DNA of 36,398 bases, taken from NCBI GenBank assembly GCA_038248085.1, contig JBBRUE010000001.1:1-36398 (forward strand). The letters run 5' to 3'. Of the stretch, positions 6,982-32,984 are shown one piece after another. The position numbers and the translations under genes were made by a program. The stretch is from Myxococcales bacterium (GTDB lineage: Bacteria > Myxococcota > Myxococcia > Myxococcales > Myxococcaceae). How positions within the stretch are numbered: the first letter of the stretch is position 1; each line of letters begins with the position of its first letter. The notes beneath the pieces are model-generated. The model saw only the letters and a program-made list of their open reading frames with translations, was not told where the DNA came from and ran no database searches.

Positions 6982-7113
6982 ATGCGTAATGACCCGGGCC
7001 TCCTGTACTTCTTCTTCGTCAAGCTCCTCGACGGTGCGCTTCGAGAAGGCGAAGAAGGAGCTGCTGTGAGCACGCATGCGAACGAGTTGTCGGAGCGACT
7101 GGAAGCCCTGTGA
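6982..7113 (+). CDS. possible 43-aa small protein (below track threshold)
   Basis: ATG 6982 ... TGA 7111-7113 overlaps the ATPase ATG (TGATG). MRNDPGLLYFFFVKLLDGALREGEEGAAVSTHANELSERLEAL. Third-position GC is moderate. Confidence 0.3.
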   Translation: MRNDPGLLYFFFVKLLDGALREGEEGAAVSTHANELSERLEAL

Positions 7114-7928
7114 TGAAGCTCGTCCTCAACAAGAAGCAGAAGCTCGTCATCGACATGGAGGACGAGCAGGTGAAGGCCGACGGCCTTCGTGTCTTCATCG
7201 GGGGTGAATCCGGCTCTGGCAAGAGCAACGCGGCCATGCTCATCGCCTCGCAGTGGGTGGAGCAGAACGGTCAGGTCATCGTGCTCGACTCGCACGGCGA
7301 GTACGGCGCGCTCTGGGAGACGCGGCCCGGCGGCGCTCACCCGGTCGTCCGCTTCGGCTACGGCGAGCCGCCGGTGCGTGAGGAGTCGGTCGAGATGTGC
7401 ATGAGCTACATCCGCGACGGCCACAGCCTCGTGCTCGACCTCTCGCACTGGACCGACCTGCACCCGGAGACGCTCGACAAGTTCGTGCGTGACCTGCTCA
7501 AGGACCTGTACGAGCTGCGCCGCCACAAGCCCAAGCGCACGCTCATCCTCGTCGAGGAGGCGCAGGTCTACGCGCCGCAGCAGCAGATGTCGGGGCAGGC
7601 GGCAAACATCCGCATGTTCACCGCGCTCATCACCGGTGGCCGGAAGTTCGGCCTCAACTTCGTGCTGGGCACGCAGCGCCAGTCTCTCGTGGACAGCAAC
7701 GTCATCGCGGGCTGCAACGTGCGTCTCTTCATGCGCATCTCGGAGGCCAAGGACTGGAAGAAGCTCAAGCCGTACATTCCGCCTCGCTGCCCGGTGCAGT
7801 TCGGAGGCAACGTGAAGCGCGACATCGCGCGCTTCGCTTCGGGCGAAGTGCTGGCGCTCTCGCGCTGGTTCGGTACACAGCGAGTGCGGCTCGACCTCCC
7901 CGAAGTCCCCGTGAAGAAGTTCCTCTAG
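7113..7928 (+). CDS. HerA/FtsK (DUF87)-type P-loop ATPase; candidate genome-packaging ATPase (271 aa)
   Basis: FIGGESGSGKSNAAMLIASQW (Walker A), QVIVLDSHGEYGAL, RTLILVEEAQVYAP (Walker B) and GGRKFGLNFVLGTQRQSLVDSNVIAGCNVRLFMRI together form the HerA/DUF87 central-domain pattern. Too short for a terminase and has no nuclease domain. Confidence 0.85.
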   Translation: MKLVLNKKQKLVIDMEDEQVKADGLRVFIGGESGSGKSNAAMLIASQWVEQNGQVIVLDSHGEYGALWETRPGGAHPVVRFGYGEPPVREESVEMCMSYIRDGHSLVLDLSHWTDLHPETLDKFVRDLLKDLYELRRHKPKRTLILVEEAQVYAPQQQMSGQAANIRMFTALITGGRKFGLNFVLGTQRQSLVDSNVIAGCNVRLFMRISEAKDWKKLKPYIPPRCPVQFGGNVKRDIARFASGEVLALSRWFGTQRVRLDLPEVPVKKFL

Positions 7929-8053
7929 TGCGTGGTGACGCTACCTGCCCACGCTGCAGAGGCACTGGGCGCTGCGGTGGCCGTCTACCGTTCGCCTTCA
8001 AGCAGGTCCGCGCACCATCGTGGTGCTCAGCGGTTTCACCAGTCGTCCCGTGA
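7928..8053 (+). CDS. possible 41-aa zinc-finger miniprotein
   Basis: The GTG overlaps the ATPase TAG (TAGTG). VRGDATCPRCRGTGRCGGRLPFAFKQ... carries a DnaJ-type CxxCxGxG motif. Below the track threshold. Confidence 0.3.
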   Translation: MRGDATCPRCRGTGRCGGRLPFAFKQVRAPSWCSAVSPVVP

Positions 8054-8061
8054 GGTAGCCC

Positions 8062-8271
8062 ATGGCCCGTGCTCGCTCCACCGCAGCTTCCAAGACCGTC
8101 GACATCATCCGTCGCCTCACCATGTCGGACCAGCCGGGGGTCATCTACCGGGTGCTGGCCTGCGGTCACACGCAGGTCGAGCCCAGCGGGGGGAAGGCAC
8201 CCAAGCAGCTCCGGGCGCGCTGCGTCCGCTGTGGCTTCACCTCGAAGATTCCTGATGGTCATGAGTCATGA
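8062..8271 (+). CDS. small zinc-ribbon protein (69 aa)
   Basis: Track ORF with GAGG upstream. Cys/His pairs ACGH...CVRCG. High third-position GC. Confidence 0.65.
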   Translation: MARARSTAASKTVDIIRRLTMSDQPGVIYRVLACGHTQVEPSGGKAPKQLRARCVRCGFTSKIPDGHES

Positions 8272-8329
8272 GACGGCTGGCGGCGTGCACTGAGTCGCTG
8301 AGGTACCTCGCCTCTGGTACCTTGGGCAC

Positions 8330-32099: not shown

Positions 32100-32108
32100 G
32101 CCGTCCCC

Positions 32109-32552
32109 ATGACCGCCCCCAACCAAATGTTCGCAGGTGTGCAGTTCGTCCCCGGCATCGGCTACGTGCAGGGCGCGGGCATGGGACTGACTCCGTCGCG
32201 CGGGCTCGGGGACGAGTCGGCCGTGATGATGATCAGCGGGCTCGGTGCAGCAGCTCCTGCGAACCCGTGGCCGACGCAGGCGCAGTGGCAGGCGGAGCGC
32301 ACGCGCTACGTCGGCTGGATGCAGGCCGCCAACACGCCGGGCCTCACCGTGAAAGCGTGGGCCGGTCCCGTGCCGCCCGAGCAGTGGCCGGGCGCTGGTT
32401 CGGCCACGTCGAAGCCGGGCGTGTTCGCCGGGCTGCAGCAGCCCATCACCCTCTTCAACGTCGAGCTGCCGCTCTGGGCTTGGCTCGCGATTGCTGCCCT
32501 GCTGGGTGGAGCAGGCGGCGCAGGTCTCATGCACCTCAAGATGAAGCGCTGA
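32109..32552 (+). CDS. tail-anchored protein (147 aa)
   Basis: Track ORF. SRGLGDESAVMMISGLGAAAP motif. C-terminal TM LPLWAWLAIAALLGGAGGAGLMHLKMKR. Confidence 0.8.
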   Translation: MTAPNQMFAGVQFVPGIGYVQGAGMGLTPSRGLGDESAVMMISGLGAAAPANPWPTQAQWQAERTRYVGWMQAANTPGLTVKAWAGPVPPEQWPGAGSATSKPGVFAGLQQPITLFNVELPLWAWLAIAALLGGAGGAGLMHLKMKR

Positions 32553-32587
32553 GACTTTCACCCCCACCCAAACGAAGGAGCATCACC

Positions 32588-32713
32588 ATGGCAGGCAAGT
32601 GCGGCGGTCGAGGCAAGTACAAGAAGGGCCATAAGATGGCGGGCAAGTGCAAGTGCAAGCACGGCGCGACCAAGGCGCAGAACAAGTGCAAGAAGGGCCG
32701 CAAGCACAGCTAA
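32588..32713 (+). CDS. 41-aa Lys/Cys/Gly-rich miniprotein
   Basis: Strong AAGGAG 9 nt upstream of the ATG at 32588. MAGKCGGRGKYKKGHKMAGKCKCKHGATKAQNKCKKGRKHS. Below the track threshold as an independent ORF. Confidence 0.55.
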   Translation: MAGKCGGRGKYKKGHKMAGKCKCKHGATKAQNKCKKGRKHS

Positions 32714-32780
32714 CAAGCTGAGCTGGCGTTCACCGGTACCTCAGCGGGGCTTTCTCGCCTGCTCACGAAAGGAAGCACAC

Positions 32781-32984
32781 ATGTCGAAAGCAGCATCGAA
32801 GAAAGCAGCATTGAAGAAGGCCGCCGCGAAGGGTCGTCGGGTGTTGAAGTGCCTGAAGGCGAAGTACGGGCACAAGAACCGCCACGGTGATCGCGTCGGT
32901 CCGAAGAAGCCCAACCTCAAGCAGAAGGCCGCGTGCGGCTCGAAGACGGCGAAGGCCGCCCTCAAGAAGCGCGGCAAGCGCTGA
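32781..32984 (+). CDS. histone-H1-like Lys/Ala-rich basic protein (67 aa)
   Basis: Track ORF with AAGGAAG upstream. MSKAASKKAALKKAAAKGRRVLKCLKAKYGHKNRHG...KTAKAALKKRGKR. Confidence 0.7.
   Translation: MSKAASKKAALKKAAAKGRRVLKCLKAKYGHKNRHGDRVGPKKPNLKQKAACGSKTAKAALKKRGKR

What the first reader, a model, noticed from the sequence alone, without database searches (positions are those of the whole stretch)
7113..32984. Virion-like module with no tailed-phage hallmark: candidate tailless, internal-membrane virus or provirus
From 7.1 to 33.0 kb almost everything is on the plus strand in tightly coupled operons. The only NTPase is a 271-aa HerA/FtsK(DUF87)-type P-loop protein (GESGSGKSN, VIVLDSHGEY, LILVEEAQ, GRKFGLNFVLGTQRQS). 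Membrane-containing icosahedral viruses of the PRD1, PM2, STIV and P23-77/SH1 types use this class as their genome-packaging ATPase.

By eye I find no terminase large subunit, portal, HK97-like capsid, tape-measure, sheath or fibre candidates. Instead there are:
- two adjacent ~200-aa beta-rich soluble proteins;
- at least 17 predicted membrane proteins;
- two giant proteins of 1182 and 796 aa (SH1-type viruses also carry very large structural proteins);
- small basic DNA-binding-looking proteins;
- cell-wall enzymes.

The window also carries its own replication arm and regulators. Together this reads as a >36-kb virus or provirus of the tailless internal-membrane class. That would be large for bacterial members, and to my knowledge none is described for this kind of high-GC host.
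Basis: partly seen in the sequence, partly recalled or inferred. Interest (0 to 1): 0.85.

Follow-up and report, generated by a model that had tools for sequence, protein, structure and literature searches.

The report
Tailless membrane phage virion module
This stretch most likely encodes the particle-building genes of a previously undescribed, large-genome bacterial virus with no tail, a shell made of two small jelly-roll proteins and probably an internal lipid membrane; such viruses were so far known only from salt-loving archaea, Thermus and one salt-lake phage.

Summary

- **Capsid candidates.** The two adjacent beta-rich proteins (24561-25208, 25429-25983) fold confidently as jelly rolls. 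Their best whole-chain matches are capsid proteins of SPV1, SH1, HHIV-2 and HCIV-1, and probably SSIP-1. The fold matches are weak and there is no sequence similarity.
- **ATPase.** The 272-aa protein is a bare HerA/FtsK core. It aligns over most of its core with the packaging ATPases of P23-77 (98.5%) and SH1 (97.5%), though cellular HerA proteins score higher in bits.
- **No tail genes.** No terminase, portal, HK97 capsid or tail gene was found among 47 window proteins. None was found in about 165 proteins of relatives either.
- **Co-inheritance.** In the window's clade the ATPase, the capsid pair, a transglutaminase-like protein homologous to an SSIP-1 virion protein, a VanY peptidase and a run of tail-anchored membrane proteins are inherited together. 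The capsid pair is adjacent in all 11 distinct contigs examined.

Corrections:
- The window is a fragment; relatives sit on contigs of 52-108 kb.
- There is no sign of integration.
- I count about 13 membrane proteins, not 17.
- The host is unknown.

Verdict: probable new lineage of single-jelly-roll, membrane-containing phages. No particle has been seen.

The parts
7110..7928 (+). Putative genome-packaging ATPase: a 272-aa bare HerA/FtsK core with no HAS-barrel
   Evidence: Pfam DUF87 at 6.6e-10. hhalign gives 98.5% to P23-77 ORF13 and 97.5% to SH1 ORF17. It sits on the same contigs as the capsid pair.
8330..11878 (+). Giant 1182-aa protein of unknown fold. Candidate large structural protein, comparable in position to SH1 VP1 or SSIP-1 gp43.
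   Evidence: High-GC3 ORF. No Pfam or PHROG hit. Partial homologue in L001. The role is inferred from position only.
13061..13603 (-). Polytopic membrane protein with 3-4 hydrophobic segments
   Evidence: Hydropathy scan.
14201..16591 (+). Giant acidic, Pro/Ala-rich protein of 796 aa (the ORF opens at 13991)
   Evidence: Homologue in L001, 30% over 439 aa. No family hit.
16668..17630 (+). Two basic proteins (net charge +22 and +15). Candidate DNA-condensing or core proteins.
   Evidence: The role is inferred.
17983..18456 (+). RadC-like JAB domain protein
   Evidence: Pfam RadC at 1e-32.
18807..19622 (+). Transglutaminase-like (papain-fold) protein. Candidate virion-associated enzyme, either a cell-wall isopeptidase or a maturation protease.
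   Evidence: Pfam Transglut_core at 6.1e-11. BLASTP 2e-12 to SSIP-1 gp34, which its record annotates as a structural protein. Conserved in L001, L003, L004, L013 and L030.
19635..20102 (+). Not modelled here.
   Evidence: Homologues in L001, L003 and L004. No family hit.
20779..21975 (+). GP88-family Cys-rich protein, part of the conserved core
   Evidence: Pfam GP88 at 4.9e-15. Homologues in L003, L004, L008 and L030.
22309..23025 (+). Membrane-anchored VanY-type D-Ala-D-Ala peptidase, for lysis or entry
   Evidence: Pfam VanY at 6.9e-16. N-terminal hydrophobic segment. The PHROG 'tape measure' hit covers this domain only.
23776..24414 (+). Membrane protein always found directly upstream of capsid gene 1, with a duplicated C-terminal F(S/N)GATVAIE motif
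24561..25208 (+). Candidate major capsid protein 1, single jelly roll, 215 aa
   Evidence: AlphaFold2 pLDDT 89.2. Foldseek matches SPV1 VP4 (prob 1.0, TM 0.43/0.50), SH1, HCIV-1 and BFVD entry I1ZBH9. 322 clusters, and nearly all of the 150 best are single-domain at 200-250 aa. GC3 is 0.95.
25213..25247 (+). Hairpin with a G+C-rich stem (about 12 uninterrupted pairs) directly after the stop codon of capsid gene 1
25429..25983 (+). Candidate major capsid protein 2, single jelly roll, 184 aa
   Evidence: AlphaFold2 pLDDT 82.3. Foldseek matches SPV1 (TM 0.42/0.43) and HHIV-2 (0.40/0.41) among generic jelly rolls. It lies next to capsid gene 1 in every locus examined.
25988..32552 (+). Ten consecutive genes for small membrane proteins: 25988-26821, 26818-27657, 27667-28062, 28115-28540, 28746-29276, 29357-30295, 30300-31130, 31141-31674 (PG_binding_1), 31728-32099, 32109-32552. 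Most have their hydrophobic segment at or near the C-terminus. They are candidates for proteins of an internal membrane.
   Evidence: Hydropathy. Homologues in the same order in L001, L003 and L004. Enriched in a hydrophobic-x-Gly-hydrophobic-Gly motif.
32588..32984 (+). Two tiny, very basic Lys/Cys-rich proteins (32588-32713 and 32781-32984), followed by a terminator-like hairpin at 33014-33035 that ends the module
604..4957 (-). Replication arm: SNF2 helicase (604-2118), an unknown protein (2366-3271) and a DUF3987-like primase/helicase (3737-4957). It has the same synteny in relatives.

Best explanation
The block from 7.1 to 33.0 kb is the morphogenesis module of a tailless icosahedral dsDNA bacteriophage. 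The window is a fragment of that phage's larger genome.

Shown here:
- Two adjacent genes encode single-jelly-roll proteins.
- A bare HerA/FtsK-core ATPase is homologous to the packaging ATPases of P23-77 and SH1.
- These genes are co-inherited with a transglutaminase-like protein (homologous to the SSIP-1 structural protein gp34), a VanY peptidase, a GP88-like protein and a run of tail-anchored membrane proteins.
- No tailed-phage gene is detectable.

Inferred:
- The two jelly-roll proteins build pseudo-hexameric capsomers of an icosahedral shell, as in Sphaerolipoviridae, Matsushitaviridae and SSIP-1.
- The roughly 13 small membrane proteins populate a lipid vesicle under the shell.
- The ATPase pumps the genome into a preformed procapsid through a special vertex.
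- The small, very basic proteins help condense the DNA.
- The peptidase and the transglutaminase-like enzyme serve wall penetration and/or lysis.
- The giant proteins are spike, scaffold or size-determining structural proteins.
For: - **Fold.** AlphaFold2 models are confident: pLDDT 89.2 and 82.3. The best whole-chain Foldseek matches are capsid proteins. For protein 1 these are SPV1 VP4 (prob 1.0, TM 0.43/0.50), SH1 (prob 0.98 and 0.93) and HCIV-1. For protein 2 they are SPV1 (TM 0.42/0.43) and HHIV-2 (0.40/0.41).
- **SSIP-1 link.** In the viral structure library the best match by TM is I1ZBH9 (211 aa), with I1ZBI0 (256 aa) also matching. Their lengths and adjacent accession numbers fit SSIP-1 gp46 and gp47.
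- **ATPase.** hhalign gives 98.5% (E 1.6e-15, 168 columns) to the P23-77 ATPase and 97.5% (E 6.4e-12, 174 columns) to SH1 ORF17, against 24% to PRD1 P9. In hmmsearch the SH1 match is a single stretch spanning most of both proteins.
- **Co-inheritance.** The ATPase and capsid-protein hit lists share contigs of 33.6, 47.1, 62.9, 64.1, 66.9, 74.5, 77.4, 82.5, 84.9 and 108.2 kb. Synteny was checked directly on three of them.
- **Adjacency.** The two capsid genes are adjacent in all 11 distinct contigs examined.
- **Family shape.** Capsid protein 1 has 322 clusters at 50% identity. Nearly all of the 150 best are stand-alone proteins of 200-250 aa, never a domain of a larger protein. It is the most conserved protein of the module and has the highest GC3.
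- **Virion enzyme.** The transglutaminase-like protein matches SSIP-1 structural protein gp34 at 2e-12.
- **No tail genes.** No terminase, portal, HK97 capsid or tail gene appears among the 47 window proteins. None appears in one 52.6-kb IMG/VR relative read over 93.5% of its length, which instead shows a family-A DNA polymerase, primase, helicase and exonuclease arm.
- **Gene order.** Lytic enzymes, then a membrane protein, then the two capsid genes, then small membrane proteins: this parallels P23-77 and SH1. ATPase, then a giant protein, then the capsid genes parallels SSIP-1.
Against: - Fold matches are weak (E about 1e-3, TM 0.34-0.50). Non-capsid jelly rolls also appear: nucleoplasmin, BcsB, the furin P domain, TasA, Ena and phage cement proteins.
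- There is no sequence or profile similarity to any known capsid protein.
- In bit score the ATPase is nearer to cellular and defence HerA proteins (52-78 bits) than to SH1 (51) or P23-77 (39).
- The ATPase lies 17 kb from the capsid genes rather than beside them.
- The distant IMG/VR relatives of the capsid pair show no such ATPase in the parts read.
- Full genomes of close relatives could not be read, so a tail module elsewhere is not excluded for them.
- Only two proteins were modelled.
- A lipid membrane and a particle are unobserved.
Confidence: 0.66

Rival explanations
1. It is a tailed phage (Caudoviricetes). Its terminase, portal and HK97 capsid genes lie outside the window or are too divergent for profile searches. 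The jelly-roll proteins would be decoration, cement or receptor-binding proteins, and the HerA-like ATPase a replication or recombination helicase.
For: - The window is a fragment, and close relatives sit on contigs of 64-108 kb of which only about 35-40 kb was seen.
- Foldseek also lists jelly-roll cement proteins of tailed phages: Pam1 7eel_H and KHP40 7dou.
- One unlocated 'tail protein' PHROG hit at 3.9e-8 appeared in distant relatives.
- A marginal tape-measure hit at 2.9e-4 appeared in L007.
- The only phage-database hit of the ATPase is a 'hera helicase' in a Caudoviricetes sp. record.
- The giant proteins are unannotated.
Against: - No hallmark was found in 47 window proteins or in about 165 proteins of relatives. 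That set includes a 52.6-kb contig read to 93.5%.
- A terminase large subunit is normally easy to detect.
- The ATPase has the size and architecture of the P23-77 and SH1 packaging ATPases.
- The capsid pair is followed by ten small membrane-protein genes, which tailed-phage structural modules do not have.
- Capsid protein 1 is the most conserved gene of the module.
Confidence: 0.12
2. It is a jelly-roll-capsid virus built on another plan, like the archaeal portoglobovirus SPV1. The shell would be made of single jelly rolls lying differently, and the DNA condensed by small basic proteins into a nucleoprotein core. The ATPase would not be the packaging motor, and the membrane proteins would serve entry, exit or an envelope.
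For: - SPV1 VP4 is the top PDB match of capsid protein 1 and the best whole-chain match of protein 2.
- CRESS-DNA and tymovirus coat proteins also match.
- There are several extremely basic small proteins.
- Distant relatives keep the capsid genes but show no HerA-type ATPase in the parts read.
Against: - In the window's own clade the ATPase is strictly co-inherited with the capsid pair.
- That ATPase is homologous to sphaerolipovirus packaging ATPases.
- TM scores to SPV1 are no better than marginal.
- There is a transglutaminase-like link to SSIP-1. [quoted passage not shown]
Confidence: 0.12
3. It is not a virion module at all. It would be part of a non-viral mobile element, such as a conjugative or secretion-type apparatus or a fibre system. 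The jelly-roll proteins would polymerise like TasA or Ena fibres, and the HerA-like ATPase would be a DNA translocase or defence protein.
For: - TasA and Ena3A appear among the fold matches.
- There are weak Pfam hits of the ATPase to TrwB and TraG P-loops.
- RadC, SNF2 and DUF3987 proteins are common on conjugative elements.
- There are many membrane proteins and wall hydrolases.
- The repeated GATVAIE strand-like motif could be a donor strand.
Against: - No VirB4, relaxase or coupling protein is present.
- The ATPase lacks the HAS barrel, and no partner nuclease of a HerA system is present.
- Relatives carry phage-type genes: HNH endonucleases, endolysins, Rz-like spanins, family-A DNA polymerase and Sak4.
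- Four relatives are in the IMG/VR viral collection.
- The capsid-protein pattern scan found only two loci among 185,579 species genomes, both in MAGs. No plasmid carries capsid protein 1.
Confidence: 0.05

Closest known systems
[quoted passage not shown]
   Same: - It is a bacterial, tailless, internal-membrane design with two capsid protein types and a comparatively large genome (PMC6356626, PMC6260650).
- The window's transglutaminase-like protein is homologous to its structural protein gp34 (2e-12).
- The best viral fold matches by TM, I1ZBH9 and I1ZBI0, fit gp46 and gp47 by length and accession order.
- The gene order is the same: P-loop protein, then a giant structural protein, then small structural proteins.
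   Different: - There is no sequence or profile similarity between the capsid candidates.
- The SSIP-1 P-loop protein gp40 matches only around the Walker A motif (81%, 62 columns).
- SSIP-1 has 57% GC against 65% here, and comes from a halophilic host.
- Relatives of the window reach 52-108 kb.
- The identity of I1ZBH9 with gp46 is my inference and was not verified.
Helvetiavirae / Singelaviria: Sphaerolipoviridae (SH1, HHIV-2, HCIV-1), Simuloviridae (SNJ1), Matsushitaviridae (P23-77, IN93)
   Same: - There are two adjacent single-jelly-roll capsid genes, preceded by a small membrane protein and followed by small membrane proteins.
- The packaging ATPase is homologous.
- Giant structural proteins are present in SH1.
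- Lytic enzymes sit in the structural region.
   Different: - Capsid proteins are unrelated at the sequence and profile level, and fold scores are modest.
- The ATPase is 17 kb from the capsid genes, not in the conserved block of ATPase, small capsid gene and large capsid gene.
- Genomes are two to six times larger.
- The replication genes differ: SNF2, a DUF3987 primase, and a family-A polymerase in relatives.
- The sequences come from metagenomes and MAGs rather than from haloarchaeal or Thermus isolates. Their habitats were not established here.
Sulfolobus polyhedral virus 1 (Portogloboviridae)
   Same: It gives the best PDB fold match for both jelly-roll proteins. It has two single-jelly-roll shell proteins, an internal membrane, and DNA condensed by a basic protein.
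   Different: SPV1 is an archaeal virus of about 20 kb with no packaging ATPase. The window's clade has one. TM scores are only 0.42-0.50.
Tectiviridae / Corticoviridae (PRD1, PM2; double-jelly-roll phages)
   Same: The overall logic is the same: an FtsK/HerA-type ATPase, an internal membrane with many small membrane proteins, and virion-associated wall hydrolases.
   Different: No double-jelly-roll candidate was found. The ATPase is only marginally similar to PRD1 P9 (24%). Those genomes are 10-15 kb.

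Membership tests
Helvetiavirae/Singelaviria (Sphaerolipoviridae, Simuloviridae, Matsushitaviridae) | [quoted passage not shown] | tested here: met
   AlphaFold2 models have pLDDT 89 and 82. Jelly-roll capsid proteins are the best whole-chain matches. The genes are adjacent in all 11 distinct contigs examined.
Helvetiavirae/Singelaviria (Sphaerolipoviridae, Simuloviridae, Matsushitaviridae) | Capsid proteins homologous in sequence or profile to VP16/VP17 or VP7/VP4 | tested here: not met
   hhalign probabilities are below 1% against P23-77 VP16/VP17 and SH1 VP7/VP4. PDB profile searches give no hit at E up to 10.
Helvetiavirae/Singelaviria (Sphaerolipoviridae, Simuloviridae, Matsushitaviridae) | FtsK/HerA-type packaging ATPase homologous to that of the family | tested here: met
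   98.5% (E 1.6e-15) to P23-77 ORF13 and 97.5% (E 6.4e-12) to SH1 ORF17, aligned over the ATPase core.
Helvetiavirae/Singelaviria (Sphaerolipoviridae, Simuloviridae, Matsushitaviridae) | Conserved contiguous block: ATPase, small capsid gene, large capsid gene | tested here: not met
   The ATPase is at 7.1 kb and the capsid genes at 24.6-26.0 kb. The same separation holds in relatives.
Helvetiavirae/Singelaviria (Sphaerolipoviridae, Simuloviridae, Matsushitaviridae) | Vertical barrels forming pseudo-hexameric capsomers over an internal lipid membrane | not testable with these tools
   Only indirect evidence: about 13 small membrane proteins encoded in the block.
Helvetiavirae/Singelaviria (Sphaerolipoviridae, Simuloviridae, Matsushitaviridae) | Genome of about 16-31 kb | tested here: not met
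   The window is 36.4 kb without termini. Relatives lie on contigs of 52-108 kb.
SSIP-1-like phages (unclassified) | Shared virion proteins with SSIP-1 | tested here: inconclusive
   The homologue of gp34 (transglutaminase-like) is present at 2e-12. The capsid candidates show no sequence similarity to gp46 or gp47. The fold match to BFVD entry I1ZBH9 (TM 0.43/0.44) is attributed to gp46 only by inference.
Caudoviricetes (tailed phages) | Terminase large subunit, portal protein and HK97-fold capsid protein | tested here: not met
   None was found by Pfam or PHROGs in 47 window proteins. None was found in relatives. Not every ORF was modelled, and full genomes of close relatives were not seen.
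Bamfordvirae prokaryotic viruses (Tectiviridae, Corticoviridae, Turriviridae) | [quoted passage not shown] | tested here: inconclusive
   No family hit suggests one. Only two proteins were modelled, and both have a single barrel. The ATPase is only 24% probable against PRD1 P9.
Portogloboviridae | Single-jelly-roll shell proteins and no packaging ATPase | tested here: not met
   The fold resemblance to VP4 is met weakly. A conserved ATPase is present in the window's clade.
Cellular or defence HerA systems (HerA-NurA, HerA-Sir2, HerA-DUF4297) | A 500-700-aa HerA with an N-terminal HAS barrel and an adjacent partner nuclease or effector | tested here: not met
   The protein is 272 aa. PDB HerA proteins match in two stretches, the best-scoring one falling in the C-terminal part of their ATPase domain. 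No NurA, Sir2 or other partner appears in the Pfam scans of the neighbouring genes.
Conjugative type IV secretion elements | VirB4-type ATPase, relaxase and coupling protein | tested here: not met
   None was found. There are only sub-threshold TrwB and TraG P-loop hits on the ATPase.

The most novel reading that the evidence does not exclude
The window would represent a widespread, so far unrecognised, family-or-higher lineage of tailless, membrane-containing phages. It comprises at least 322 clusters of the capsid protein at 50% identity. Its shells would be built from two (in a sister clade three) single-jelly-roll proteins, and its genomes would be 50-110 kb. That would be the largest of any non-tailed prokaryotic virus. 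The lineage is linked to the SH1 and P23-77 viruses only through the packaging ATPase, and to SSIP-1 through a virion enzyme. It may also use a protease that cuts structural proteins at a hydrophobic-x-Gly-hydrophobic-Gly motif, reminiscent of the adenovirus protease sites.
Probability: 0.4. Interest if true: 0.85.

Novelty: new variant of a known kind. Interest (0 to 1): 0.72.

Why it matters
Viruses with two single-jelly-roll capsid proteins are known only from haloarchaea, Thermus and the orphan phage SSIP-1. That narrow distribution has been used as an argument in the debate over whether the double-jelly-roll capsid of PRD1, adenovirus and the giant viruses arose by fusion of two single barrels, or whether the single-barrel viruses are recent derivatives (Woo et al. 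2021, PMC8328091).

A diverse lineage with the same design, found here in metagenomes and MAGs and not tied to those two extreme habitats, would widen that distribution and give new sequences for rooting the ATPase and capsid trees. With contigs of 52-108 kb it would also push the genome-size limit of tailless phages well beyond SSIP-1 (44 kb), which implies large triangulation numbers and size-determining proteins.

On the practical side, these contigs carry no hallmark that standard phage-annotation profiles recognise. Two of them were binned into bacterial MAGs (Paceibacterota, Salinibacterium). The capsid-protein profile built here could serve as a marker for the group.

Tried and rejected
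- **Nucleotide similarity.** Megablast of 24 kb against phage and plasmid collections gave no match.
- **Capsid protein 1 in deposited records.** tblastn against 50,697 phage records and 72,556 plasmids gave no match.
- **Sequence and profile searches of both jelly-roll proteins.** Pfam, PHROGs and PDB all gave nothing.
- **The two capsid candidates against each other.** hhalign found no similarity, so they are not detectable paralogues.
- **The 'tape measure' PHROG hit (1.3e-18).** It traced to the VanY domain of 22309-23025 and was rejected as a tail gene.
- **The 'structural protein' hit in L007.** It is a 62-residue stretch.
- **Terminal repeats.** No direct or inverted terminal repeats are present.
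- **Provirus reading.** No tRNA or integrase was found in the window, so I rejected it for this contig. An integrase does occur in a distant relative.
- **Finding the ATPase in IMG/VR with a profile.** The scan was swamped by the P-loop pattern. The single-sequence scan found nothing.
- **Walking contigs with exact DNA words.** Each step yields only about 4 kb, so I abandoned it. Walking with proteins at the locus ends worked.
- **Promoter and terminator scan of the module.** The counts were not above the shuffled expectation.
- **Literature on Pfam GP88.** The search returned nothing relevant.
- **The SSIP-1 primary paper.** It is not held in the library.
- **Conjugative-element and defence-HerA readings.** I considered both and rejected them on missing defining parts.

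Full report
**The window.** It is 36,398 bp with about 65% G+C and no tRNA. Because of the G+C content every stretch has several overlapping ORFs, so I called genes by third-position G+C and translated 47 of them. One frame was corrected later: 31728-32099, not 31774-32099. The contig has neither direct nor inverted terminal repeats. The protein database records 36,398 bp as the longest contig carrying its proteins. The window is therefore a whole assembled contig but a fragment of a genome.

**Check of the observation.**
- From 7.1 to 33.0 kb the coding strand is plus, except for 13061-13603 and 23471-23734.
- The giant ORFs, the very basic small proteins (net charge +20 to +24) and the wall enzymes are all there. 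The wall enzymes are VanY at 6.9e-16, a transglutaminase core at 6.1e-11, and PG_binding_1.
- The membrane-protein count is lower than stated. I find about 13 credible ones in the block. Ten are consecutive genes from 25988 to 32552. Most of these have their hydrophobic segment at or near the C-terminus.
- The minus-strand left arm encodes an SNF2 helicase and a DUF3987-like primase/helicase.

**Tailed-phage hallmarks.**
- All 47 proteins were scanned against Pfam and PHROGs. No terminase, portal, HK97 capsid, sheath, tube or baseplate family appears.
- One 'tail length tape measure' family scored 1.3e-18. The match is residues 111-226 of the VanY peptidase against an internal segment of a 1948-position profile. 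It is an embedded peptidase domain, not a tape measure.

**The two beta-rich proteins.**
- Capsid candidate 1 (24561-25208) has 113 homologues at 90% clustering. All are unannotated, 205-225 aa, and sit on contigs of up to 107 kb.
- An exhaustive profile search finds 322 clusters at 50% identity, 94 of them below 1e-30. Nearly all of the 150 best are stand-alone proteins of 200-250 aa.
- Capsid candidate 2 (25429-25983) has 25 homologues, not counting the window's own protein.
- AlphaFold2 with these alignments gives confident all-beta models: pLDDT 89.2 with pTM 0.83, and pLDDT 82.3 with pTM 0.74.
- For protein 1, Foldseek against the PDB puts SPV1 VP4 first (prob 1.0, TM 0.43/0.50). SH1 chains (0.98 and 0.93), HCIV-1, P23-77 VP17 (weak) and tymovirus and circovirus coats follow.
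- For protein 2, generic jelly rolls (nucleoplasmin, BcsB) have the lowest E-values. The best whole-chain matches are SPV1 (0.42/0.43) and HHIV-2 (0.40/0.41).
- Against predicted viral structures, the best TM for protein 1 is I1ZBH9 (211 aa; 0.43/0.44; prob 1.0), and I1ZBI0 (256 aa) also matches.
- SSIP-1 encodes consecutive structural proteins gp46 (211 aa) and gp47 (256 aa). I infer that these are the two entries, but I did not verify it.
- Both window proteins are thus jelly rolls that look most like viral shell proteins. The scores show fold resemblance, not homology.
- No sequence or profile comparison links them to P23-77 VP16/VP17, SH1 VP7/VP4, SSIP-1 gp46/gp47, any PDB chain, or each other.

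**The ATPase.**
- By sequence it is HerA-like. A profile of 35 family members hits PDB HerA proteins at 4e-21 to 3e-13 (52-78 bits). Those proteins are 500-700 aa and match in two stretches, the best-scoring one in the C-terminal part of their ATPase domain.
- The same profile, at the same database size, scores SH1 ORF17 at 50.6 bits in a single stretch spanning most of both proteins. It scores the P23-77 packaging ATPase at 38.6 bits and PRD1 P9 at 16.1 bits.
- hhalign gives 98.5% (E 1.6e-15, 168 columns) for P23-77, 97.5% (E 6.4e-12, 174 columns) for SH1 and 24% for PRD1.
- The protein therefore has the size and architecture of the packaging ATPases of the single-jelly-roll viruses and is homologous to them. 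Like them, it sits close to cellular HerA.

**Relatives and co-inheritance.**
- The hit lists of the ATPase and of capsid protein 1 share contigs of 33.6, 47.1, 62.9, 64.1, 66.9, 74.5, 77.4, 82.5, 84.9 and 108.2 kb.
- On the 77-kb NCBI contig, the 108-kb 'Salinibacterium' MAG contig and a 33.6-kb Logan contig I read both regions.
- The order matches the window: SNF2(-), DUF3987(-), HTH, ATPase(+), giant proteins, peptidase, transglutaminase-like, a 155-aa protein, GP88-like, membrane protein, capsid 1, capsid 2, small membrane proteins.
- The capsid pair is adjacent in all 11 distinct contigs examined.
- Capsid protein 1 is the most conserved protein of the module (59-70% identity, against 50-55% for the ATPase). 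It also has the highest third-position G+C (0.95).
- Its stop codon is followed at once by a hairpin with a G+C-rich stem of about 12 uninterrupted pairs.

**A more distant clade.**
- Four IMG/VR contigs of 52-86 kb carry capsid protein 1 at 30-37% identity. In each contig read downstream of that gene it is followed by two tandem copies related to capsid protein 2.
- I walked one of them (52,638 bp) to 93.5% coverage.
- Besides the structural-looking block it has a minus-strand arm with a family-A DNA polymerase, Sak4, an SbcC-like protein, methyltransferases, a primase, an SNF2 helicase and an exonuclease.
- The 96 proteins around the capsid genes of the four contigs hit HNH endonucleases, endolysins, a chitinase and Rz-like spanins.
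- Again there is no terminase, portal or HK97 capsid. There is also no ATPase of the window's type in the parts read.
- That absence is the main observation the packaging-motor reading does not explain. It keeps an SPV1-like alternative alive.

**Links to SSIP-1.**
- The window's transglutaminase-like protein matches SSIP-1 gp34, annotated as a structural protein, at 2e-12 (29% over 109 residues, including the Cys motif).
- SSIP-1 is a tailless, membrane-containing phage. It has a T=49 capsid about 100 nm across and a 44-kb circular genome. It is reported to have two capsid protein types and remains unclassified (PMC6356626, PMC6260650, PMC4958249).
- Its gene order also parallels the window: a P-loop protein, then a giant structural protein, then small structural proteins.

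**What it most likely is.** It is the morphogenesis module of a tailless icosahedral dsDNA phage with two single-jelly-roll shell proteins, an internal membrane carrying about a dozen small proteins, and a HerA/FtsK-type packaging motor. The window is a fragment of a genome that is probably 50-110 kb.
- Shown: the folds, the ATPase homology, the co-inheritance, and the lack of detectable tailed-phage genes.
- Inferred: the shell architecture, the membrane, the packaging role, and the roles of the basic, giant and lytic proteins.
- My confidence is about two thirds.
- Rivals: a tailed phage with unseen or undetectable hallmark genes (0.12), an SPV1-like plan in which the ATPase is not the motor (0.12), and a non-viral fibre or transfer apparatus (0.05).

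**Novelty.** The kind is known. This lineage nevertheless fails several membership tests for the established families:
- there is no capsid homology;
- the ATPase is not adjacent to the capsid genes;
- the genome is too large.

I found no description of it. I file it as a new variant of a known kind. It matters for the single-to-double jelly-roll debate, where the narrow host range of these viruses has been used as an argument (PMC8328091). It also matters for the size limits of tailless phages.

Noticed in passing
window 23776-32552 and structural modules of L001, L003, L004, L007: A short motif, hydrophobic-x-Gly-hydrophobic-Gly (LAGLG, LSGLG, LGGFG, LRGIG), is strongly over-represented. The window has 22 against 5.6 +/- 2.3 in shuffles, and the module 15 against 2.4 +/- 1.5. 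L001 has 17 against 3.0, L003 15 against 3.6, L004 13 against 3.6 and L007 12 against 2.7. It is not enriched in the replication and sugar-gene locus L010 (1 against 2.0). It usually occurs once per protein outside the membrane segment. It resembles the adenovirus protease site (M/I/L)XGX-G, so it may be a maturation-cleavage or docking signal. The transglutaminase-like (papain-fold) protein is a candidate protease.
   Followed up: partly
window 24325-24390 and 28166-28186; L001 9783-9845, L003 9750-9809, L004 9823-9882: The membrane protein directly upstream of capsid gene 1 ends in two tandem copies of F(S/N)GATVAIE. These are conserved in all close relatives, and a further copy sits in 28115-28540. 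It could be a strand that docks onto the shell proteins.
   Followed up: partly
window 17644-18063: The motif LKC(P/A)(R/T)G occurs five times across two adjacent genes: three times in 17635-17979 and twice at the N-terminus of the RadC-like protein.
   Followed up: no
window 16668-17069, 23222-23467, 32588-32713, 32781-32984: Four small, extremely basic Lys/Cys-rich proteins, with net charge up to +24. One is a 41-aa ORF missed by the 60-aa ORF list. They are possible DNA-condensing core proteins.
   Followed up: no
L005-L008 (IMG/VR contigs), about 10-12 kb in each locus: The distant clade has three tandem jelly-roll genes: capsid 1 followed by two paralogues of capsid 2. It shows no HerA-type ATPase in the parts read, including 93.5% of one 52.6-kb contig.
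   Followed up: partly
L003 (JALHNY010000005.1) and L004/L010 (SCSV01000286.1): Two relatives are contigs of 85 and 108 kb binned into MAGs named Candidatus Paceibacterota and Salinibacterium sp. One protein is named from a 'Patescibacteria group bacterium'. These look like viral contigs swept into bins, so the names are not reliable host evidence.
   Followed up: no
L009 974-3655; L010 7403-7669 and 14588-20442; L015 289-579, 7587-8915, 16390-20645: Relatives carry extras. The SNF2 helicase has faint intein-like Hom_end/LAGLIDADG hits. There are also Cpn10 (GroES), an NAD-dependent epimerase, methyltransferases, UDP-glucose dehydrogenase and glycosyltransferases. In L010 these lie between the ATPase and the capsid genes.
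   Followed up: no
L014 319-981: The 107-kb JGI contig carries a second, divergent copy of capsid protein 1 (E 4.9e-15) about 9 kb upstream of the main one.
   Followed up: no
L015 (Logan SRR33785051, 91-kb contig): This relative has only 56.6% G+C, so the family is not confined to high-G+C genomes.
   Followed up: no
L005-L008 proteins: Rz-like spanin families (phrog_739, phrog_2466) hit proteins of the distant clade. This hints at hosts with an outer membrane. No spanin hit occurs in the window.
   Followed up: no
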